Positions 2,291 to 13,067 of a stretch of 14,769 bases of DNA are shown piece by piece. The first letter of the stretch is position 1, and each line of letters starts with the position of its first letter. The position numbers and the translations under genes are program-made. The notes below the pieces were generated by a model. That model ran no database searches. It had not been told where the DNA came from and saw nothing but the letters and a program-made list of their open reading frames with translations. The DNA comes from Escherichia coli (GTDB lineage Bacteria > Pseudomonadota > Gammaproteobacteria > Enterobacterales > Enterobacteriaceae). Location: assembly GCA_005397905.1 (NCBI GenBank), contig GCA_005397905.1_4318.1; one strand, written 5' to 3'.

Positions 2291-2710
2291 ATGCAAATTA
2301 CAGATAAAGAAGATTACATTGAGTTTTACCCAGGCCCGGTTAAGTCATGCCCTAAAGAGGATAACGAACAAATATTTTGCTCTGATTGGGTTAAGTATAA
2401 CTACCCGGAGATGGTGTTCTTCCACTGCGTGAATGAGGGCAAGAAGACCATTGGTCAAGCAAGAAAGGACCAGGCTAAGGGGCTTCTCAAAGGCGTATCA
2501 GACTGCATGTTTCTTATTCCTGAATCTATCCGAGGAAAATACCCTTTTGGGGCCATAGAGCTAAAGAGGGCTGGGAAGACTCAGGCAAGCACAGTCAGCG
2601 ATGAACAAAAGTCCTTCCTAAAAAGCGTAAGGGAATCAGGAGGATTCGCTGCTGTAGCTTACGGTCGCGAGGGTTTTCTGGCAGCATTCAAACAAATGAT
2701 TTCAAAATAG
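2291..2710 (+). CDS. VRR-NUC domain (PD-(D/E)xK) nuclease
   Basis: 139-aa ORF starting 2 nt after the helicase stop; ...SDCMFLIPE...GAIELKRAGKTQ... fits the D/E...ExK core of VRR-NUC. Helicase plus VRR-NUC adjacency is a common phage module. Confidence 0.7.
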   Translation: MQITDKEDYIEFYPGPVKSCPKEDNEQIFCSDWVKYNYPEMVFFHCVNEGKKTIGQARKDQAKGLLKGVSDCMFLIPESIRGKYPFGAIELKRAGKTQASTVSDEQKSFLKSVRESGGFAAVAYGREGFLAAFKQMISK

Positions 2711-2750
2711 CACGAATTGCTAAAGACGTATCGGTGAAGTGGTGTATTAT
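2708..2750 (+). promoter_or_regulatory. TAGCAC-type promoter-like element
   Basis: TAGCAC 2708-2713 (its TAG is the stop codon of the VRR-NUC gene), TTGCTA 2717-2722, 22-bp spacer, TATTAT 2745-2750. The -10 sits in the loop of a 7-bp dyad (2735-2741 / 2751-2757). Confidence 0.55.
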
Positions 2751-3399: not shown

Positions 3400-3400
3400 A

Positions 3401-3443
3401 TAGCACTTTTTGTTAAAACTCCAATCCATGGATTGATTATATT
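3401..3443 (+). promoter_or_regulatory. TAGCAC-type promoter-like element
   Basis: TAGCAC 3401-3406, TTGTTA 3410-3415, 22-bp spacer holding a perfect 12-bp palindrome AATCCATGGATT (3423-3434), TATATT 3438-3443. Confidence 0.55.
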
Positions 3444-5425: not shown

Positions 5426-5980
5426 ATGACCAAATTGTTTATACTGAATGGGCCAGCTGGGGTCGGCAAAGATACAATTGCTGACGTCATGGTTAGTTCT
5501 GGCGCTTGCTGTGAGAAGGTTTCTTTTAAGTCACCCGTGTTTGATGTGGCTAAGGGTATGTTATCAAGCGATGAATTTGATTGGTTTATTGAAAACTACA
5601 ACAATAGAGACGAGAAAGATAAACCTCAGAAAATTCTCGGAGGTAAAACTATTCGAGAGTTTATGATATGGATTAGCGAATCAGTAATGAAACCTGTTTT
5701 TGGTAATGATGTCTTCGGCAGGAGATTGGCTAGTTCACTTGGTGATGGTTGCTATATTTGTGCTGACGGTGGATTTGCTAGCGAGATTGAGCCACTGATC
5801 GACGCTGGTGTTAAGGTCACGTTAATCAGGTTGCATAGGGCAGGGTACACATTTTATGGCGATAGTCGCTCATATATTCACGGGGTGTGTGAAAGAGAGA
5901 TTGATGTTCATGTTGTTGATGGTGATATTAATGGAACATCAGCATTGGTAAGGCACGTAATAAATAGCACGAATTGCTAA
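5426..5980 (+). CDS. deoxynucleoside monophosphate kinase-like P-loop kinase
   Basis: 184 aa; Walker A LNGPAGVGKDT; the N-terminal stretch KLFILNGPAGVGKDTIADVMVS resembles the N-terminus of the T4 gene 1 dNMP kinase as I recall it. GGAGA RBS. Protein ends ...NSTNC with the stop TAA supplied by a TTGCTAA element. Confidence 0.65.
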   Translation: MTKLFILNGPAGVGKDTIADVMVSSGACCEKVSFKSPVFDVAKGMLSSDEFDWFIENYNNRDEKDKPQKILGGKTIREFMIWISESVMKPVFGNDVFGRRLASSLGDGCYICADGGFASEIEPLIDAGVKVTLIRLHRAGYTFYGDSRSYIHGVCEREIDVHVVDGDINGTSALVRHVINSTNC

Positions 5981-7421: not shown

Positions 7422-7438
7422 TGGAGGCTATATTTTTA
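7412..7438. terminator. bidirectional intrinsic terminator at the convergence point
   Basis: 7-bp stem AGCCTCC / GGAGGCT (7412-7418 / 7423-7429) with loop TAAT (holding the spanin stop codon); T-rich run after it on the plus strand (ATATTTTT) and a 5-6 T tract after it on the minus strand (rc of 7407-7411). Confidence 0.65.
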
Positions 7439-7771
7439 ACTAAATAACTCGTCGTCCGTCATTGTTCCTATATTCATCATCTCTTTTATGTACTTGCTTT
7501 CATACCCGTTAAGCGCCTCGAAGTTAAAACCGAATGGCCTCTTCAAACTCCCCTTGCTAACAAATTCACCGCACTTACCATCAATGTATCCCATGCTAAG
7601 CATCTTCGCGCAGAACTCCTTTGAAGCGGCGCTGCAAAACTCTCTATGCGATAAACCCGCTGCTTTGCTGAATCGCTGAGAGTCCTTATGTTGGTAGATG
7701 AATCGCGCCAAATGCTGGCGCGTAAAATAGCTATAGGATTCGCAGAATCGGTACAAGTCTAAAATAAACAT
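7436..7771 (-). CDS. hypothetical protein (111 aa)
   Basis: ATG 3 nt after the stop of the 527-aa gene (translational coupling); ends at the bidirectional terminator. Confidence 0.5.
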   Translation of the reverse strand: MFILDLYRFCESYSYFTRQHLARFIYQHKDSQRFSKAAGLSHREFCSAASKEFCAKMLSMGYIDGKCGEFVSKGSLKRPFGFNFEALNGYESKYIKEMMNIGTMTDDELFS

Positions 7772-7774
7772 TAA

Positions 7775-9358
7775 TTACCCCAGCAGTCGCGGATTAATGT
7801 AAACCTTATCACCAATCAGGCAGGTGTAGTTTTTCTCATCAAGCATCGGAAGTAAATGGTCTTTAATCTTAGCCATTACGCCAGCCTGACCCTCAAACGG
7901 CCTAACCTTGCGTGCTGATTCATATAGTGAACGAAGTCCTACAACGCCCTTACTGTTCTTTCCTTGCTTAATCAATATGTCAATTAACTTGTTCATCTCT
8001 GCATTATCGCCAGCGTGACCAGCCGAACTAGCAGCAGAAAGGTAAGTTTTACTTTGTTCGTAAAACATGATAATTGCCTCTTGCATTGTCTCTAGGTCAA
8101 TTTGCCTTGACTTCAATGGCCGCTCATTATTCTTGCATGACCAGTTTCTTATTGTATGAAGAATTGCCGCCATTCGAATAACTTGCTTATCCATCTTGCC
8201 AAGAGCGCCACGCAGCATAGAGTGAGAGTATTTACCTCCATCCGCAAGGTGCGGCTCCATATCCTGGCGTGCTAGATTAAGATATCGCATAGCTGATTCT
8301 GAAATAGATAAATTAACTTGTGTTTCGTTCATAATGTTGTGAATCATTCTAAAGTAATCAGCTTTCAATTCGCCATCAACCGGTTCGTATGTCGACTCAC
8401 CTTTTTCATTAATAAAAACGCGATTTCCAATCATGGGGCGCTCCCTAACCAGCCAGAATCGCTCAGATACACCTATACCACGAGCACCAGCCTCCATAAT
8501 TGCATTGATTGTTTCATCCTGAGCTATTACAGCTATTGCGCCAAGCGCGGTAAACATCAAGTTGTTGTCAGCATTGGCGCGAGATATTGATATATTTCCA
8601 GAATCCCACGCCTTAAGAACTAACTCACTGTTTGTTTTCTTGCTGCCATCTCCGTAGGTCATCCCAAGCAATGAGTTAATTGCCGTTGCTTCGTCTGATA
8701 TTACCGCAAAGTTACCCTGTCGACTGTTTATTCGAGCCAGACCTTCAGGTGTTGTATCAGATACCGGAAAGACAATATCACACAGCTTTTCTAACTTCTC
8801 TTCTAAATCCTCTTTCTCCTCAAACAATGACGCCATTTCGGATGGCGACTTCTCCTGCTTCATCTCTTTCGCCAGCGCTGATAGCTTGGCCATAATCTTT
8901 TTTCTTTCACGCTTTCGCTGGTCATTGATTCGCTCAACCTCGGCTACCATTGGAGCTATTGCGAGTGAGTTAATGGCTGACTTACCAGTCGATGGTGGCT
9001 GGCTGGTTACTACGTACAGTGAGGTTGGTTGCTGCGTTCCGTGATACTCAACAGTAAAACGCCCTAGCATGGCAGCGGAAATACACCCCAGGAAATGCAT
9101 GTATGCGGAAGACTCTGGGAACTGAACAGATCGAGCGATATTGGATGAGAGTTTGCCAACAACATCAATATCATTTCCGAGTGAGATTACGGGATACTTG
9201 TCATTTGCAGCATCAATCTCCACTGGTGCTTTCCAGAATGATTGAGACTGGCGATAGCCATTTGCATTAATGGCGACTCGCAGTGGTGGGAGGTTGTCTG
9301 CGGCAGCAATTGCCATAACCTGTTCAACAGATAGTTTATCTTCGTTGAAATCAAACAT
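7775..9358 (-). CDS. P-loop NTPase of unknown function (527 aa), RecA/DnaB-like Walker A
   Basis: Walker A-like VVTSQPPSTGKSAI (about residues 115-128), Walker B-like FAVISDE (about 217-223), a highly charged predicted helix between them; GGAGAG RBS. N-terminal 43 aa and C-terminal 55 aa are homologous to the 181-aa ORF at 12482-13027. Confidence 0.8.
   Translation of the reverse strand: MFDFNEDKLSVEQVMAIAAADNLPPLRVAINANGYRQSQSFWKAPVEIDAANDKYPVISLGNDIDVVGKLSSNIARSVQFPESSAYMHFLGCISAAMLGRFTVEYHGTQQPTSLYVVTSQPPSTGKSAINSLAIAPMVAEVERINDQRKRERKKIMAKLSALAKEMKQEKSPSEMASLFEEKEDLEEKLEKLCDIVFPVSDTTPEGLARINSRQGNFAVISDEATAINSLLGMTYGDGSKKTNSELVLKAWDSGNISISRANADNNLMFTALGAIAVIAQDETINAIMEAGARGIGVSERFWLVRERPMIGNRVFINEKGESTYEPVDGELKADYFRMIHNIMNETQVNLSISESAMRYLNLARQDMEPHLADGGKYSHSMLRGALGKMDKQVIRMAAILHTIRNWSCKNNERPLKSRQIDLETMQEAIIMFYEQSKTYLSAASSAGHAGDNAEMNKLIDILIKQGKNSKGVVGLRSLYESARKVRPFEGQAGVMAKIKDHLLPMLDEKNYTCLIGDKVYINPRLLG
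9233..9262. repeat. 30-nt perfect inverted repeat, copy A (inside the NTPase gene)
   Basis: rc of 9233-9262 = AATGGCTATCGCCAGTCTCAATCATTCTGG, identical to 12584-12613, while flanking synonymous sites have diverged. Confidence 0.9.
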
Positions 9359-9388
9359 TACTTCTCTCCGTATTGTTTTTGAGAGGCC

Positions 9389-9431
9389 ATTATATCAACG
9401 GCCTCTTATAAAGCATTATCAATTTGTGCTA
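9389..9431 (-). promoter_or_regulatory. TAGCAC-type promoter-like element
   Basis: Minus strand reads TAGCAC-AAA-TTGATA, 22 bp, TATAAT (plus 9431-9389); the -10 lies in the loop of dyad AGAGGCC / GGCCTCT (9382-9388 / 9400-9406). Confidence 0.55.
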
Positions 9432-9544
9432 TTAATTACTCTTAATCCACTTTATGCACATCCATGCTCCGGAAACATAGAGCGCTAGCTTTGCTAACTC
9501 AGCCGCTAAGTGTATAAATAAAGCAAAATCAGAAATAAGCTCAG

Positions 9545-9784
9545 TCATTTTTTAATCTCCATCTCCATAATTTCATAACTTATGTAATTATTTATCATTC
9601 CAATAAGTGATTTTGGGTATGTTTGCATATGATTCTTGGCTGAATCTTCATCAAGATGCGCTGATATGTTGTGAAAATTGTATTCATAATCCATGCCCAT
9701 TAGTATGTATATCTTATCGTGCGCCTTAATGAGGTTATTTGATTTTATTTCCCCAAGCGACCATCCTTTTCCTTTTCTAATCAT
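9545..9784 (-). CDS. hypothetical protein (79 aa)
   Basis: ATG overlaps the stop of the upstream minus-strand gene (ATGA). Confidence 0.5.
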   Translation of the reverse strand: MIRKGKGWSLGEIKSNNLIKAHDKIYILMGMDYEYNFHNISAHLDEDSAKNHMQTYPKSLIGMINNYISYEIMEMEIKK

Positions 9785-10134
9785 TTGTATTGAGCCTCAA
9801 AGCGATAGTCTCCGCAAACTGTAACAAATCCAACATCTTCGTCACGATATAGCTGCCATGCGCTTCCCTCTTTATCGTAAATGTATCCAGCACGCTGCCC
9901 AAGTCCAGCATGGAGATCTACTTGATATCGCTTCCCTTCGGTGAAGTATTTACGAATGGATGAGCGATGATTAACCTTTGTGCAGTAAATTGTCTTGGTC
10001 TTAATATACTTGCCGCGCTCTTCAAGGTTAATCCATTTCCCATCTTTCTTGATTTGTTCTACACCATCTTTAACGCGAGCTTTGTATAGTACGTTTTCGT
10101 TGCTAATCCAGTTTTTGGTAATCGTAGTAGTCAT
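9781..10134 (-). CDS. hypothetical protein (117 aa)
   Basis: Start chosen at the ATG giving MTTTITKNW... (plus 10134) because the track start 10179 lies inside the promoter -10; conserved leader CATCGAAACGAAACAACGAAGGG precedes it. Confidence 0.55.
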   Translation of the reverse strand: MTTTITKNWISNENVLYKARVKDGVEQIKKDGKWINLEERGKYIKTKTIYCTKVNHRSSIRKYFTEGKRYQVDLHAGLGQRAGYIYDKEGSAWQLYRDEDVGFVTVCGDYRFEAQYK

Positions 10135-10170
10135 TTCTTTTACCCTTCGTTGTTTCGTTTCGATGAGTTT

Positions 10171-10213
10171 AATATACATGAAAAGCCACGAAGGGTTTTA
10201 GCAATTAGTGCTA
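10171..10213 (-). promoter_or_regulatory. TAGCAC-type promoter-like element
   Basis: Minus strand TAGCAC-TAA-TTGCTA (plus 10213-10199), 22 bp, TATATT (plus 10176-10171). Confidence 0.55.
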
Positions 10214-10362
10214 TTTCGTGCTTTTTCTATGGCCTTGAGCATAATCTCATGACTCTCAAGCAAGTCATCGCGGAACCAATCACCGCAAGGCCAGCCTTTT
10301 CCGCTGTAGGTGCTGATTACCTCAAGATCGAAATAATTTATCTCAGATGGTAGAAGCATCAT
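10198..10362 (-). CDS. hypothetical small protein (54 aa)
   Basis: Minus-strand ATG at 10362 overlapping the upstream stop (ATGA), GAGGTG RBS; MMLLPSEINYFDLEVISTYSGKGWPCGDWFRDDLLESHEIMLKAIEKARNSTNC; ends in the same ...NSTNC-stop inside the TAGCAC element as the kinase gene. Confidence 0.45.
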   Translation of the reverse strand: MMLLPSEINYFDLEVISTYSGKGWPCGDWFRDDLLESHEIMLKAIEKARNSTNC

Positions 10363-10598
10363 TTCACCTCGTCAAAAGTTGCAATCCCAGGGATAAACAT
10401 TCCAACCTTCCAGCCTGCAATGGCAATCCATCCAGAATCGTGCTTATGCGGTCGCTCAGCGCCATTAATCAACCATTCGTTCGGGATTGTCTTGCCGTTA
10501 ATGATTAGCGGCTCAGCGTCGTATACAGAGCCTTTTACGAATGGTGTTAAAACTTTCTTGTCGGTGCTCGCAATAACGTTGGTGCAGCGAATTTTCAT
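10359..10598 (-). CDS. hypothetical protein (79 aa)
   Basis: ATG with GAGGA RBS; same strand as the flanking small genes. Confidence 0.5.
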   Translation of the reverse strand: MKIRCTNVIASTDKKVLTPFVKGSVYDAEPLIINGKTIPNEWLINGAERPHKHDSGWIAIAGWKVGMFIPGIATFDEVK

Positions 10599-10608
10599 AT
10601 CTCAATCC

Positions 10609-10788
10609 TCAAATAAATGGTAAACATTCATTACAGCCAAGTCCATCACAGCACATGAATTCATCATCTGACTGGAATTGCTTAGCCAAATCAATGTCCA
10701 ACTTTCCGCGCACCACAAGGTCGGTGTAATCTTCGTTCAGCCCAATCAGTGAGCATTCGTGGAGTAACTCATCTTTATCAATCTTCAT
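10609..10788 (-). CDS. hypothetical small Cys-rich protein (59 aa)
   Basis: Second in-frame ATG (MKIDKD...) preferred over track start 10794 on AAGGGG spacing; C-terminal CCDGLGCNEC cluster suggests metal binding. Confidence 0.45.
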   Translation of the reverse strand: MKIDKDELLHECSLIGLNEDYTDLVVRGKLDIDLAKQFQSDDEFMCCDGLGCNECLPFI

Positions 10789-10816
10789 ATCCATCCCCTT
10801 GTTGTTAGTGAGTTAA

Positions 10817-10859
10817 CTGTAGCCTCGCCAGCAACAGATGTCTTTAGCAAAAAGTGCTA
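10817..10859 (-). promoter_or_regulatory. TAGCAC-type promoter-like element (weak -10)
   Basis: Minus strand TAGCAC-TTT-TTGCTA (plus 10859-10845); the -10 at the expected distance is only TACAGT/CTACAG-like. Confidence 0.4.
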
Positions 10860-10861
10860 CT

Positions 10862-11053
10862 TCAGAAATTGATGTTCTCGACAACATGAACCATCTGATA
10901 ACCAAGGCGATAACTGTCACCGAGGATTAATCGACCCATAAACTGATCGTTTGTGAAGCTCTCCTTACCCATAGTGCGAAGCGTTCCGTTATGGATGATG
11001 GTGTCACCAATCTTTACGTCATTCTTATGCGTCAAAACAATATTATTGCTCAT
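10862..11053 (-). CDS. hypothetical protein (63 aa)
   Basis: ATG (MSNNIV...) with GAGGTG 6 nt upstream; the track start 11062 is GTG. Stop TGA lies 2 nt before a TAGCAC element. Confidence 0.5.
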   Translation of the reverse strand: MSNNIVLTHKNDVKIGDTIIHNGTLRTMGKESFTNDQFMGRLILGDSYRLGYQMVHVVENINF

Positions 11054-11067
11054 TATCAACACCTCTA

Positions 11068-11250
11068 TTACATGTGTTTCAGGTAGAAAGCGATTTCTTT
11101 AATGTTGTCTTCTGGATGAGCCTTCACGACTACCGCTAACATCTTCTCAACCAGAGTCTTGCTGCTCTCAGGGTTATAACCTTCCTGAACCAGTAGGGCG
11201 ATAGTGTTTTCGACGGTGACTGGTGAGTTTTTGTTGATGCGCTTAGCCAT
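11068..11250 (-). CDS. hypothetical protein (60 aa)
   Basis: First gene of the leftward operon; AAGGA RBS; leader CATCGAAACGACACGCACTAAAGGAAACC. Confidence 0.5.
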   Translation of the reverse strand: MAKRINKNSPVTVENTIALLVQEGYNPESSKTLVEKMLAVVVKAHPEDNIKEIAFYLKHM

Positions 11251-11287
11251 GATGGTTTCCTTTAGTGCGTGTCGTTTCGATGAGGTA

Positions 11288-11331
11288 ATAATAGCAAATC
11301 ACAGTCTTTTGATTATTAGCAAAAAGTGCTA
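11288..11331 (-). promoter_or_regulatory. TAGCAC-type promoter-like element
   Basis: Minus strand TAGCAC-TTT-TTGCTA (plus 11331-11317), 23 bp, TATTAT (plus 11293-11288). Confidence 0.5.
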
Positions 11332-11357
11332 TTCGTTAGATTTATGTATTGTTGCAG

Positions 11358-11418
11358 ATATTGCAATGATTCACATGACTATTGCACATATAGCAATATT
11401 GCTTCCGATGCAATGATG
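11358..11418. promoter_or_regulatory. cluster of ATTGCAAT-type palindromic operator-like sites
   Basis: ATATTGCAATGAT (11358-11370), ATTGCACATATAGCAAT (11381-11397) and GATGCAATGATG (11407-11418) share TTGCA / TGCAAT half-sites. Confidence 0.35.
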
Positions 11419-11419
11419 T

Positions 11420-11502
11420 TTTTGATTGTTGCGAAAAGTGAAATGAAGTGGTGATTGAGTGAATGAAGGATTGATGGACTACCATACAAGTTGATTTTGA
11501 TT
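11420..11502. repeat. direct-repeat array with GATTG core (five copies) plus TGAA(A)TGAAG repeats
   Basis: TTGATT/GATTGA at 11422, 11453, 11469, 11491 and 11497; TGAAATGAAG (11439-11448) and TGAATGAAGG (11460-11469). Confidence 0.4.
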
Positions 11503-11645
11503 CTGGCTGAGCCATTTTGAGCATACGCGTTATAAAAGTTATGCCGTGTGGATGCGCCAGCTCCCCGCGGGAATCATGTACGCCTATCACGCTAAATTAC
11601 GCAATGGTTACATAATAATATCTATATATATCAACCATTTAGTAA

Positions 11646-11666
11646 TATTATTATTATTATTATTAT
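11646..11666. repeat. (TAT)7 trinucleotide microsatellite in an AT-rich tract
   Basis: Seven uninterrupted TAT units at 11646-11666, flanked by (TA)n and further AT-rich sequence. Confidence 0.8.
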
Positions 11667-11726
11667 ATACGTGTATATAATGTAGATAGTGGATATTGGA
11701 TATTGCGATAGTTTTCTATGATTTTT

Positions 11727-11762
11727 TCCTACACTTGTAGGAATGGTACTACACTGTAGGAA
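11727..11762. promoter_or_regulatory. two adjacent palindromic operator-like sites sharing a TGTAGGA half-site
   Basis: TCCTACA-CT-TGTAGGA (11727-11742) and CTACA-C-TGTAGG (11749-11760), centres about 21 bp apart. Confidence 0.4.
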
Positions 11763-11891
11763 TAAATAGGCATATATGGGCCAATCCACCATAAAAACTG
11801 ATGTACAAGCTGTACACGGTTTTACATTGAGCTATATCTGGGGTTGTGAGCTGAAAAGCGTAAATAAATTGAATTAAACCATGAATAACAC

Positions 11892-11920
11892 TTGATAACA
11901 TGTAACCGCGATGATATTAT
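11892..11920 (+). promoter_or_regulatory. canonical sigma70 promoter with extended -10 (TTGATA-17-TGaTATTAT)
   Basis: -35 TTGATA 11892-11897, 17-bp spacer, TG at 11912-11913, -10 TATTAT 11915-11920; about 40 nt upstream of the ATG at 11961 (CAGGAG RBS). Confidence 0.65.
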
Positions 11921-11960
11921 GCACCCATCTTAACGAAGGAAACCAATCAGGAGTATATCT

Positions 11961-12482
11961 ATGTCAAATCGCATTCAACCAGTAAGCCTTGGTGATGTTA
12001 TCCGCTACATGGCTAAGCAGGCGCTTAAGGCCGACAATCGGACTTTCCATGTTCCAATCCACCTGATAGCTCGCCAGGTTTACGGGCTAACGTCTGATGA
12101 TATTGGTCGAATCAGCGCTGAGGATCTCGAGAGTGGCGGCAAATACAGTTTGGCAAAGTTGAAGGCTTCATATGTCTCTAACACAGTTGCCAGGATGCCA
12201 GAGATTCAGGAGGCGAACGTTCGGGCTAAGCTGTCAATCAAGGACGGAGACTTTGGGGATGATGTTGATGTTCGATGCGCATACATCACCTTGGTCGATG
12301 GGGCAATACAGACAGGAAAGAGAGTGATGGCCAACAACCAGGTAGCCGATAAGGCTGTAAGCGACTTTAAGGCTAGAATCCTCAAGCTGATGCCATCAGT
12401 GACTGAGTTTGAAGGTGATGAGATTACCGGAGCCATCAAAGCAATTAAGATGTACCAGGAAATGATTAAGGAGGCAAAATAA
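11961..12482 (+). CDS. hypothetical protein (173 aa), first gene behind the canonical promoter
   Basis: ATG with CAGGAG RBS; no recognisable motif. Confidence 0.65.
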   Translation: MSNRIQPVSLGDVIRYMAKQALKADNRTFHVPIHLIARQVYGLTSDDIGRISAEDLESGGKYSLAKLKASYVSNTVARMPEIQEANVRAKLSIKDGDFGDDVDVRCAYITLVDGAIQTGKRVMANNQVADKAVSDFKARILKLMPSVTEFEGDEITGAIKAIKMYQEMIKEAK

Positions 12483-13027
12483 TGGGGATGTTTGATTTTA
12501 ACGAAGATAAGCTAACTAATGATGAGATTATGAAGATTGCCATGCGGGATGGACTTCCTCCGCTACGGGTTGCAATCAACGCTAATGGCTATCGCCAGTC
12601 TCAATCATTCTGGTGTAGTGTTGAGGAGTTGCTCAGCGCAAAGCTCAACAGCAAGTCTGGCGTAGTTATGTGTAAGATTCACGGACAGAGCAGGAATGGC
12701 AAGGGGGTTGTCGGAATTCGATCAACATATGAAGCGCTGAGAAAGGTCAAGCCATTCGCCGGACTCAACGGAGTCATGCATGACCTGAAAAATAACATCC
12801 TGCCATCGTTACAGGACGCAGGAATCATCTGCTTAATCGGGGATAAGATTTACGTGCATCCATACATCGTTGGCATGCATGCGATAGAAGTTGAAGAGTG
12901 GTGCGACACCTGGGCTGTTGATGAGCATGCTAGTAGACTACCATACCACTTACGGTACGACGAAGATGAGGTAGAGAAGGCGATTGAGTTCTACCGGAAA
13001 GCTAAATCACTCCTGACCGGTAAATAG
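12482..13027 (+). CDS. hypothetical protein (181 aa), truncated paralog of the 527-aa NTPase lacking the P-loop core
   Basis: MFDFNEDKL...LPPLRVAINANGYRQSQSFW matches the NTPase N-terminus (20 consecutive residues identical); KGVVGIRSTYEALRKVKPF...CLIGDKIYVHP is about 55% identical to the NTPase C-terminus; no Walker motifs. AAGGAGG RBS; stop TAG is part of a TAGCAC element. Confidence 0.75.
   Translation: MGMFDFNEDKLTNDEIMKIAMRDGLPPLRVAINANGYRQSQSFWCSVEELLSAKLNSKSGVVMCKIHGQSRNGKGVVGIRSTYEALRKVKPFAGLNGVMHDLKNNILPSLQDAGIICLIGDKIYVHPYIVGMHAIEVEEWCDTWAVDEHASRLPYHLRYDEDEVEKAIEFYRKAKSLLTGK
12584..12613. repeat. 30-nt perfect inverted repeat, copy B (inside the paralog gene)
   Basis: AATGGCTATCGCCAGTCTCAATCATTCTGG at 12584-12613, in inverted orientation relative to 9233-9262. 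Confidence 0.9.
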
Positions 13028-13067
13028 CACTAATTGCTAAACAATAAATCGGGTAGTCAGCTATGAT
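13025..13067 (+). promoter_or_regulatory. TAGCAC-type promoter-like element
   Basis: TAGCAC 13025-13030 (TAG is the stop of the paralog gene), TTGCTA 13034-13039, 22 bp, TATGAT 13062-13067. Confidence 0.5.

What the first reader, a model, noticed from the sequence alone, without database searches (positions are those of the whole stretch)
7775..13027. A P-loop NTPase and a short paralog that keeps only its two terminal modules, encoded on opposite strands
The 527-aa minus-strand protein (7775-9358) has a RecA/DnaB-like Walker A (SQPPSTGKS), a charged helical insert and a Walker B (FAVISDE). The 181-aa plus-strand protein (12482-13027) shares its first 43 residues (MFDFNEDKL..., with LPPLRVAINANGYRQSQSFW identical over 20 residues) and its last 55 residues (about 55% identity), but has no NTPase core and carries an unrelated 50-aa tail. 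The two genes also sit in different transcription units: the short one is behind the canonical sigma70 promoter, the long one behind a TAGCAC-type element. A core-less paralog that keeps the interaction ends of an NTPase could act as an inhibitor, decoy or adaptor for the same partner. I could not assign either protein to a named family.
Basis: partly seen in the sequence, partly recalled or inferred. Interest (0 to 1): 0.85.

Follow-up and report, generated by a model that had tools for sequence, protein, structure and literature searches.

The report
Motor-less paralog of phage replicative helicase
A T1/Rtp-like coliphage encodes an MCM-like replicative helicase and, in a separate early operon, an old conserved mini-copy that keeps only the helicase's N-terminal arm and C-terminal winged-helix domain; the mini-copy probably tunes helicase docking or loading, but it is dispensable and its function is untested.

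Summary
The 181-aa protein matches the 527-aa protein at both ends (BLASTP E 2e-21 and 4e-23; profile comparison E 3.9e-6 and 1.4e-16).

The short protein (phrog_7327) is in effect the helicase with residues ~49-451 deleted, plus a family-specific 50-aa tail. It is not an artefact. About 108 phage records carry the locus, and more than 120 protein clusters of 174-190 aa exist. Synonymous sites between the two genes are saturated, while both modules are under purifying selection. AlphaFold2 models the N-arm and wH confidently.

It is nevertheless accessory: it is interrupted or replaced in 7 of 17 genomes examined, including Rtp.

It is translationally coupled to a DUF7174 gene behind a canonical sigma70 promoter. 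The helicase sits behind a repeated ATAGCAC-type promoter element.

Best reading, inferred rather than shown: a non-catalytic mimic of the helicase's docking module that modulates helicase loading. This is a new variant of a known theme, of moderate interest.

The parts
7775..9358 (-). 527-aa DUF3987-family, MCM-like AAA+ (superfamily 6) helicase
9215..9358 (-). Helicase N-terminal arm (aa 1-48), shared with the short protein
   Evidence: BLASTP 69% identity, E 2e-21. hhalign E 3.9e-6. Helices 11-21 and 25-31, pLDDT about 94.
8024..9163 (-). AAA+ core (aa 66-445): Walker A K126, Walker B D222/E223, invariant R260, R300 and K388
8786..8983 (-). Charged helical hairpin inserted after Walker A (aa 126-191)
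   Evidence: Helices 126-168 and 172-191 in the model. 15 K+R and 14 D+E.
7778..8008 (-). Helicase C-terminal winged-helix domain (aa 451-527), shared with the short protein
7436..7771 (-). 111-aa gene directly downstream of the helicase (phrog_2794, function unknown)
   Evidence: phrog_2794 E 1.6e-56. Conserved next to the helicase in all relatives. No significant similarity to the short protein.
9389..9432 (-). ATAGCAC-type promoter-like element upstream of the helicase: ATAGCACaaaTTGATAA, then TGATATAAT in the loop of a hairpin
   Evidence: Sequence. 7 oriented copies of ATAGCAC-N3-TTGNTAA in the window against 0 expected. TGATATAAT at 9389-9397. Conserved before the helicase in relatives.
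11892..11920 (+). Canonical sigma70-type promoter (TTGATA-17-TATTAT, TG-extended) of the DUF7174/short operon
   Evidence: Best-scoring site of the scan, 10/12. In the 90 nt before the DUF7174 gene, the strict -35/-10 pattern I searched for matched the window, L001 and L022; -35-like hexamers (TTGACT, TTGACC) are visible in other relatives but their spacing was not measured.
11961..12482 (+). 173-aa DUF7174 gene, translationally coupled to the short gene (TAATG overlap)
   Evidence: Pfam DUF7174 E 2.3e-50. Directly precedes the short gene in all 15 loci where both are present. AAGGAGG lies 8 nt before the ATG at 12482.
12482..13027 (+). 181-aa motor-less helicase paralog (phrog_7327)
   Evidence: phrog_7327 E 3.4e-74. 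More than 120 homologous clusters of 174-190 aa. 108 phage records with a full-length locus. AF2 pLDDT 85.5, pTM 0.70.
12488..12631 (+). Short protein N-arm module (aa 3-50)
   Evidence: 79% identical to helicase aa 1-42. pLDDT 93-95. pN/pS 0.27 among orthologues.
12647..12874 (+). Short protein winged-helix module (aa 56-131)
12875..13024 (+). Family-specific 50-aa tail, with a conserved terminal helix ...EVEKAIEFYRKAKSLLTGK
   Evidence: Conserved in alignments A3 and A5. Helix 161-179 at pLDDT 85-88, residues 141-160 at low confidence. Weak match to helicase 403-434. Removed by nonsense codons at codon 141 in two lineages.
13024..13040 (+). Next ATAGCAC-type element, overlapping the short gene's stop codon; marks the end of the two-gene early unit

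Best explanation
Shown:
- The long gene encodes the phage's DUF3987-family, MCM-like AAA+ helicase. It has an N-terminal arm, a motor core carrying a coiled-coil hairpin, and a C-terminal winged-helix (wH) domain.
- The short gene is an ancient internal-deletion paralog, roughly the helicase lacking residues 49-451. It keeps only the arm and the wH domain and adds a 50-aa tail.
- It is the second gene of a two-gene unit, coupled to DUF7174, behind a canonical sigma70 promoter. The helicase and most other genes sit behind ATAGCAC-type elements.

Inferred:
- The arm and wH fold together as one small module.
- By analogy with MCM winged-helix domains, this module is the helicase's docking or regulatory handle.
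- The motor-less copy is probably made first. It would occupy the same partner as the helicase handle: a loader, a primase, origin DNA, or helicase subunits.
- It would thereby modulate when or how efficiently the helicase is loaded.
- The role is conditional and non-essential.
For: - Homology at both ends is significant.
- The helicase fold is MCM-like and its C-terminus is a wH domain. PMC4889955 classifies DUF3987 as superfamily 6 with a C-terminal wHTH. PMC11724360 shows a PriCT-DUF3987 protein is an oligomeric 5'-3' helicase that binds its primase-polymerase.
- MCM winged-helix domains dock loaders and auto-inhibit (review PMC5538431).
- Within each genome, synonymous sites between helicase and short gene are saturated (pS 0.5-1.0), while pN is 0.12-0.27 in the arm and 0.19-0.52 in the wH.
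- Among short orthologues, pN/pS is 0.27 (arm) and 0.40 (wH) against 0.69 (linker) and 0.64 (tail). Both shared modules are therefore kept by selection.
- The family is large and length-stable.
- Two independent nonsense codons remove only the tail and leave arm plus wH.
- The promoter classes differ.
Against: - There is no functional or interaction data.
- I could not inspect model coordinates, so arm-wH packing is inferred only from confidence values.
- The gene is interrupted in DTL, CEB_EC3a, IME542, Phleasolo and the vB_EcoS-12397 group, and is replaced in Rtp and L024. Whatever it does is dispensable in those phages.
- Expression timing is inferred from promoter sequence alone.
- The direction of the effect (inhibitor or adaptor) is unknown.
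Confidence: 0.45

Rival explanations
1. The short protein is a stand-alone winged-helix DNA-binding protein. It would act as an early transcription regulator or as an origin or operator binder, using a domain borrowed from the helicase, without acting on the helicase or its partners.
For: - The wH module is basic (pI 9.7).
- It is encoded next to a 620-nt non-coding region with clustered palindromes: TTGCA-N5-TGCAA x3 at 11352-11413 and CCTACAcTTGTAGG at 11727-11742.
- It is an early-operon gene in a genome whose other promoters carry a conserved upstream ATAGCAC box.
Against: - Rtp has lost the gene, and L024 has another gene in its place. Rtp (L019) still has the ATAGCAC element before its helicase, and L024 has a one-base variant (ATAGCAT). 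The short protein therefore cannot be the required activator of that promoter class.
- The CCTACA palindrome is found only in the closest relatives.
- This reading does not explain why the acidic N-arm is the most strongly conserved part (pN/pS 0.27) and stays about 70-80% identical to the helicase arm.
Confidence: 0.2
2. The short protein is an anti-defence decoy, or a superinfection-exclusion factor. It would present the helicase's exposed arm and wH surfaces to titrate a host immune sensor, or it would poison the helicase of a competing related phage.
For: - Early expression from a host-type promoter.
- It lies in a variable, high-turnover locus where other phages carry different small genes.
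- Its linker and tail evolve fast, and it diverges much faster than the helicase: 45-90% against about 85% identity.
- Frequent loss in individual lineages.
Against: - No match to any PADLOC model or to any named anti-defence family.
- No known defence system is reported to sense DUF3987 helicases in the papers searched.
- The gene is absent from the 5,426 complete E. coli genomes searched, so it is not a prophage-borne exclusion gene.
- The idea is purely circumstantial.
Confidence: 0.13
3. The short gene is a decaying remnant of a helicase duplication with no present function.
For: It is interrupted or replaced in 7 of 17 genomes inspected. It has no catalytic core.
Against: - Synonymous sites are saturated, yet both modules stay conserved.
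- More than 120 clusters have a stable length of 174-190 aa.
- A strong Shine-Dalgarno sequence and translational coupling are retained.
- AF2 gives a confident fold.
- A neutral remnant this old would not remain an open frame in most lineages.
Confidence: 0.08
4. The resemblance is a chance match or an assembly artefact of this contig.
For: The window comes from a 14.8-kb contig filed as E. coli.
Against: E-values are 1e-16 to 1e-23. The same long/short pair at the same relative positions occurs in independently sequenced complete phage genomes, including JulesPiccard, Msk, Jk06 and AHP24.
Confidence: 0.01

Closest known systems
DUF3987 / superfamily 6 phage and mobile-element helicases (e.g. 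AgaPH, PriCT-DUF3987; PMC11724360, PMC4889955)
   Same: The long protein matches Pfam DUF3987 far above threshold. It has Walker A and B motifs, an MCM-like AAA+ fold and a small C-terminal wH domain, as described for the family.
   Different: It has no fused PriCT or primase domain and no primase gene next to it in the window. Instead it has a short N-terminal arm. A separate motor-less paralog is not mentioned in the DUF3987 passages I read in these two papers.
Archaeal/eukaryotic MCM with C-terminal winged-helix domain (review PMC5538431)
   Different: There is no OB-fold or zinc N-terminal domain. A coiled-coil hairpin follows Walker A. Sequence identity is 11-18%. A family member was reported to unwind 5'-3'. 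I know of no free-standing arm-plus-wH paralog in MCM systems.
Truncated, catalytically dead derivatives that regulate their full-length relative (Tn5 Inh, phiX174 A*, T7 gp4B; phage P4 alpha origin-binding wH with Cnr). From my own knowledge, not tested here.
   Same: The short form shares interaction or DNA-binding modules with the enzyme and lacks catalytic parts, which is a classic route to competitive regulation.
   Different: Those are mostly made from the same gene by internal starts and lack only one end. Here it is a separate, anciently diverged gene on the opposite strand. It keeps both ends, lacks the middle, has its own tail and promoter class, and is coupled to another gene.
PHROG 7327 (function unknown)
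   Same: The short protein is a full-length member (E 3.4e-74, profile 1-179 of 179).
   Different: The PHROG carries no annotation. The link to the helicase shows only as HMM cross-hits.

Membership tests
DUF3987 / SF6 MCM-like helicase (long protein) | Match to the Pfam DUF3987 model above the gathering score | tested here: met
   141.7 bits against a cut-off of 27, residues 81-429 on profile 3-348 of 364. phrog_2373 E 1e-247.
DUF3987 / SF6 MCM-like helicase (long protein) | Walker A GK[ST] and Walker B hhhhDE | tested here: met
   PPSTGKS with K126 invariant and FAVISDE with E223 invariant in 92 homologues.
DUF3987 / SF6 MCM-like helicase (long protein) | AAA+ fold closest to MCM | tested here: met
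DUF3987 / SF6 MCM-like helicase (long protein) | [quoted passage not shown] | tested here: met
DUF3987 / SF6 MCM-like helicase (long protein) | Arginine finger and sensor residues of the MCM clade | tested here: inconclusive
   R260, R300 and K388 are invariant, but I did not map them onto MCM motifs residue by residue.
DUF3987 / SF6 MCM-like helicase (long protein) | Oligomeric ATP-dependent DNA unwinding | not testable with these tools
   Shown only for the relative AgaPH (PMC11724360).
DUF3987 / SF6 MCM-like helicase (long protein) | Primase fused or encoded immediately upstream (frequent in the family, not defining) | tested here: not met
   The genes upstream of the helicase are small proteins of unknown function (phrog_2684 and others). 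The only other replication-type genes in the window are a phrog_16 helicase and an exonuclease.
PHROG 7327 (short protein) | Full-length match to the family profile | tested here: met
   E 3.4e-74, residues 3-181 on profile 1-179 of 179.
Winged-helix domain (short protein, aa 56-131) | H1-S1-H2-H3-S2-S3 fold | tested here: met
Competitive or dominant-negative truncated paralog | Lacks the catalytic core but keeps modules shared with the enzyme | tested here: met
   No Walker motifs, and nothing matches helicase 49-451 except a weak match of the tail to 403-434.
Competitive or dominant-negative truncated paralog | Binds the enzyme or its partner and alters its activity in trans | not testable with these tools
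   No multimer prediction or experiment was available.

The most novel reading that the evidence does not exclude
The phage uses a motor-less mimic of its MCM-like helicase's docking handle (N-arm plus winged helix). The mimic is made from an immediate-early host-type promoter, before the helicase itself. It would gate or license helicase loading at the origin, a bacterial-virus counterpart of winged-helix-based control of MCM loading. Alternatively, the same mimic serves as a decoy that shields the replicative helicase from a host immune sensor.
Probability: 0.2. Interest if true: 0.75.

Novelty: new variant of a known kind. Interest (0 to 1): 0.5.

Why it matters
How DUF3987/superfamily 6 helicases of T1-like phages and many mobile elements are recruited and loaded is essentially unknown.

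A natural, conserved 'arm plus winged helix only' protein marks which parts of the helicase act as an autonomous module. It also gives a ready-made probe for finding their partner, by pull-downs or dominant-negative tests.

Natural knock-outs already exist (Rtp, DTL, CEB_EC3a, IME542), as do tractable BASEL phages that carry the gene (Bas01-03). The question is therefore directly testable.

If the protein only adds a minor, conditional modulation, it is an interesting case of domain-level gene birth by internal deletion, but not a major finding.

Tried and rejected
1. Tail derived from the gene downstream of the helicase. The helicase stop is followed in frame by the ATG of the 111-aa gene, the short protein has '...VGM...' at the same point, and tblastn runs through the stop. 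BLASTP found nothing. hhalign gave E 0.15 for the tail and E 0.021 and 0.13 for whole profiles. Not supported.

2. Tail as a permuted copy of the helicase lid segment 403-434. hhalign E 0.0015. 3 of 200 column shuffles reach the score. The type-C tails do not reproduce the mapping. Left as suggestive only.

3. A nucleotide-level element or ongoing gene conversion as the reason for the N-module identity. The 30-nt perfect run exists only in the window. Its two closest relatives carry the same stretch with 2-3 mismatches, and other genomes have ordinary synonymous differences. It is a local conversion patch, not the cause of conservation.

4. Sequence searches of the PDB with both proteins and both profiles, and of NCBIfam and PADLOC. 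No informative hit.

6. Host-encoded copies. None in the 5,426 complete E. coli genomes searched.

7. Literature on DUF7174, on Drexlerviridae helicase escape mutants, and on early transcription. Nothing relevant.

8. P0122 and P0173, odd multi-stretch helicase hits. They look like scrambled assemblies and were ignored.


Full report
**Observation.** The 181-aa protein aligns to the 527-aa protein at both ends and nowhere else.
- Short 3-53 matches helicase 1-51 at 69% identity, E 2e-21. Short 37-131 matches helicase 433-527 at 40% identity without gaps, E 4e-23.
- With profiles, short 3-50 ~ helicase 1-48 (E 3.9e-6) and short 56-131 ~ helicase 452-527 (E 1.4e-16).
- The 20-residue identical stretch, the Walker A and B motifs and the charged helical insert are all present.

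**What the window is.** The DNA is 77-85% identical to Rtp-like coliphages, with JulesPiccard (Drexlerviridae, Braunvirinae) as the best match. The window also carries a phrog_16 helicase, an exonuclease, a dNMP-kinase-like gene, holin, endolysin and u-spanin. An identical short protein is filed in NCBI as an E. coli hypothetical protein on a 14,769-bp contig. The gene is absent from the 5,426 complete E. coli genomes searched, so this is a lytic-phage contig.

**The long protein.** It can be assigned to a family: Pfam DUF3987 (141.7 bits, cut-off 27) and phrog_2373 'DNA helicase'.
- An AF2 model built on 92 diverse homologues is very confident (pLDDT 93.8, pTM 0.91).
- This agrees with Kazlauskas et al. 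(PMC4889955), who place DUF3987 in helicase superfamily 6, distantly related to MCM, with a C-terminal wHTH domain.
- It also agrees with PMC11724360, which shows a PriCT-DUF3987 protein to be an oligomeric 5'-3' helicase that binds its primase-polymerase.
- The 'RecA/DnaB-like' label is therefore wrong.
- Architecture: N-terminal arm (aa 1-48, two short helices, pLDDT about 94); AAA+ core (66-445) with a helical hairpin at 126-191 after Walker A; winged helix (451-527).
- PDB sequence searches found nothing.

**The short protein.** It is a full-length member of phrog_7327, function unknown.
- AF2 with 87 family sequences gives pLDDT 85.5 and pTM 0.70. The arm scores 93-95 and the wH 87-95. 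Residues 141-160 are poorly defined, and a terminal helix at 161-179 scores 85-88.
- The arm is acidic (pI 4.5) and the wH basic (pI 9.7), as in the helicase.
- In a 181-residue chain the arm has little to pack against except the wH and the tail. I therefore infer that arm and wH form one unit. I could not inspect coordinates.

**Is it a real, maintained gene?** Yes, but it is accessory.
- More than 120 protein clusters of 174-190 aa exist, down to 53% identity. 108 phage records carry a full-length locus, almost all Escherichia phages; the ones I checked are Braunvirinae or Rogunavirinae.
- In 12 genomes holding both genes, synonymous sites between helicase and short gene are saturated (pS 0.5-1.0). 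pN is 0.12-0.27 in the arm and 0.19-0.52 in the wH.
- Among short orthologues, pN/pS is 0.27 (arm) and 0.40 (wH), against 0.69 (linker) and 0.64 (tail).
- The duplication is therefore old, and the resemblance is held by selection on the protein.
- The 30-nt perfect DNA identity is confined to the window; its two closest relatives carry the stretch with 2-3 mismatches. It is a local conversion patch.
- All three sequence types of the short protein share the same arm-wH junction and the ...LTGK or ...LNGE end, which favours a single origin.
- Against this, the gene is broken or replaced in 7 of 17 genomes examined:
  - amber at codon 141 in DTL;
  - TGA at codon 141 in the vB_EcoS-12397 group (43 near-identical records);
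  - TAA at codon 37 in CEB_EC3a;
  - a frameshift in IME542;
  - a 135-nt insertion in Phleasolo;
  - replacement after codon 19 by a lipoprotein-like gene in Rtp;
  - another small gene in its place in L024.
- Two of these lesions remove only the tail, which points to arm plus wH as the functional core.

**Origin of the tail.** The idea that it comes from the gene downstream of the helicase is not supported. It aligns weakly to helicase 403-434, the lid segment just before the wH (E 0.0015; 3 of 200 shuffles reach the score). Type-C tails do not reproduce this. The question is unresolved.

**Context and regulation.**
- The short gene overlaps the stop of a DUF7174 gene (TAATG) and has a strong Shine-Dalgarno sequence. 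DUF7174 precedes it in every locus where both are present.
- The pair sits behind the best sigma70-type site in the region: TTGATA-17-TATTAT with TG, at 11892-11920. A strict -35/-10 pattern search matched the same position in two relatives, and -35-like hexamers are visible in others.
- The helicase and six other gene blocks sit behind ATAGCAC-N3-TTGNTAA. There are 7 oriented copies against none in 200 shuffles. The TATnAT box lies 22-23 nt after the TTGNTA hexamer, not 17.
- One copy overlaps the short gene's stop codon, so DUF7174 and the short gene form a two-gene unit.
- The element is conserved before the helicase across Drexlerviridae.
- Different expression timing is thus plausible but inferred from sequence only.

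**Mechanism.** In MCM, the C-terminal winged-helix domains dock Cdt1 and ORC/Cdc6 and auto-inhibit loading (PMC5538431). By analogy I propose that the arm-plus-wH module is the helicase's docking or regulatory handle. The motor-less copy, probably made first, would occupy the same partner and modulate loading (confidence 0.45).

Rivals:
- An independent wH DNA-binding regulator (0.2). Rtp has lost the gene and L024 has another gene in its place, yet Rtp keeps the ATAGCAC element before its helicase and L024 a one-base variant of it, so the short protein is not the required activator.
- An anti-defence decoy or exclusion factor (0.13). This rests on circumstantial locus features only.
- A decaying relic (0.08). 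The selection signal contradicts it.
- An artefact (0.01). Independent genomes refute it.

**Novelty.** The helicase family is known. In the papers I could search, the conserved motor-less paralog that keeps both ends of an SF6 helicase is not described. It is a new variant of the familiar theme of truncated derivatives that share interaction modules with their enzyme. Interest is moderate (0.5). It gives a concrete handle on how DUF3987 helicases are recruited, but there is no functional evidence and the gene is dispensable.

Noticed in passing
window 2707-2723, 3400-3416, 5964-5980, 13024-13040 (+); 9416-9432, 10198-10214, 11316-11332 (-): A repeated promoter-like element, ATAGCAC-N3-TTG(C/A/T)TAA, is followed 21-22 nt later by TATnAT and often by CATCGAAA. 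There are 7 copies, all pointing in the direction of local transcription, against 0 expected. The TATnAT box lies 22-23 nt after the TTGNTA hexamer, which is not canonical sigma70 spacing and suggests a factor-dependent promoter class. The element is conserved before the helicase gene in other Drexlerviridae, including Tempevirinae.
   Followed up: partly
window 11340-11960: A stretch of about 620 nt between the two divergent transcription units contains only short ORFs, which I did not test and take to be non-coding. It holds three clustered palindromes TTGCA-N5-(T/A)GCAA (11352-11413), an AT-rich (ATT)n tract (about 11600-11680) and the palindromes TTCCTACAcTTGTAGGAA / CTACAcTGTAG (11721-11767). 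It is a candidate origin or operator region. The CCTACA palindrome occurs only in the closest relatives.
   Followed up: partly
window 9233-9262 (-) and 12581-12610 (+): A 30-nt perfectly identical stretch (AATGGCTATCGCCAGTCTCAATCATTCTGG) is shared in inverted orientation by the two genes, next to codons whose third positions all differ. The perfect run is specific to the window; its two closest relatives carry the stretch with 2-3 mismatches. It is probably a short gene-conversion patch. In principle it could also mediate in-frame inversion of the 3.2-kb segment between the genes; no such inversion was seen in the relatives.
   Followed up: yes
L029 (Rtp NC_007603) 1064-1383; L030 (Phleasolo) 1501-2172; L008, L012, L013, L022: The short-gene locus is a hot spot of decay and replacement. 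In Rtp a 19-codon stub (rtp2) is followed by a lipoprotein-like gene (rtp3). Phleasolo has a 135-nt insertion. Two lineages have independent nonsense codons at codon 141. One genome has an early TAA and one a frameshift.
   Followed up: yes
window 9381-9405 (-): The helicase -10 box (TGATATAAT) lies in the loop of a hairpin (AGAGGCC...GGCCTCT). Relatives have an equivalent hairpin at the same place with different stem sequences (GCGGTC/GGCCGC, CCCGC/GCGGG), so the structure rather than the sequence seems conserved.
   Followed up: no
window 11961-12482 (+): The DUF7174 protein is always encoded directly upstream of the short paralog and also occurs without it (Rtp rtp1, L024). It evolves even faster than the short protein (32-95% identity). 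It has no hit in PDB sequence, NCBIfam or PADLOC searches, and no paper mentions it. It is a candidate partner of the short protein, or a candidate factor for the ATAGCAC promoters.
   Followed up: partly
window 7771-7777 (-): The helicase stop codon (TAA) is followed, one codon later and in the same frame, by the ATG of the 111-aa phrog_2794 gene. The same in-frame layout occurs in SCS31 and Samwise. This is why tblastn alignments run through the stop.
   Followed up: yes
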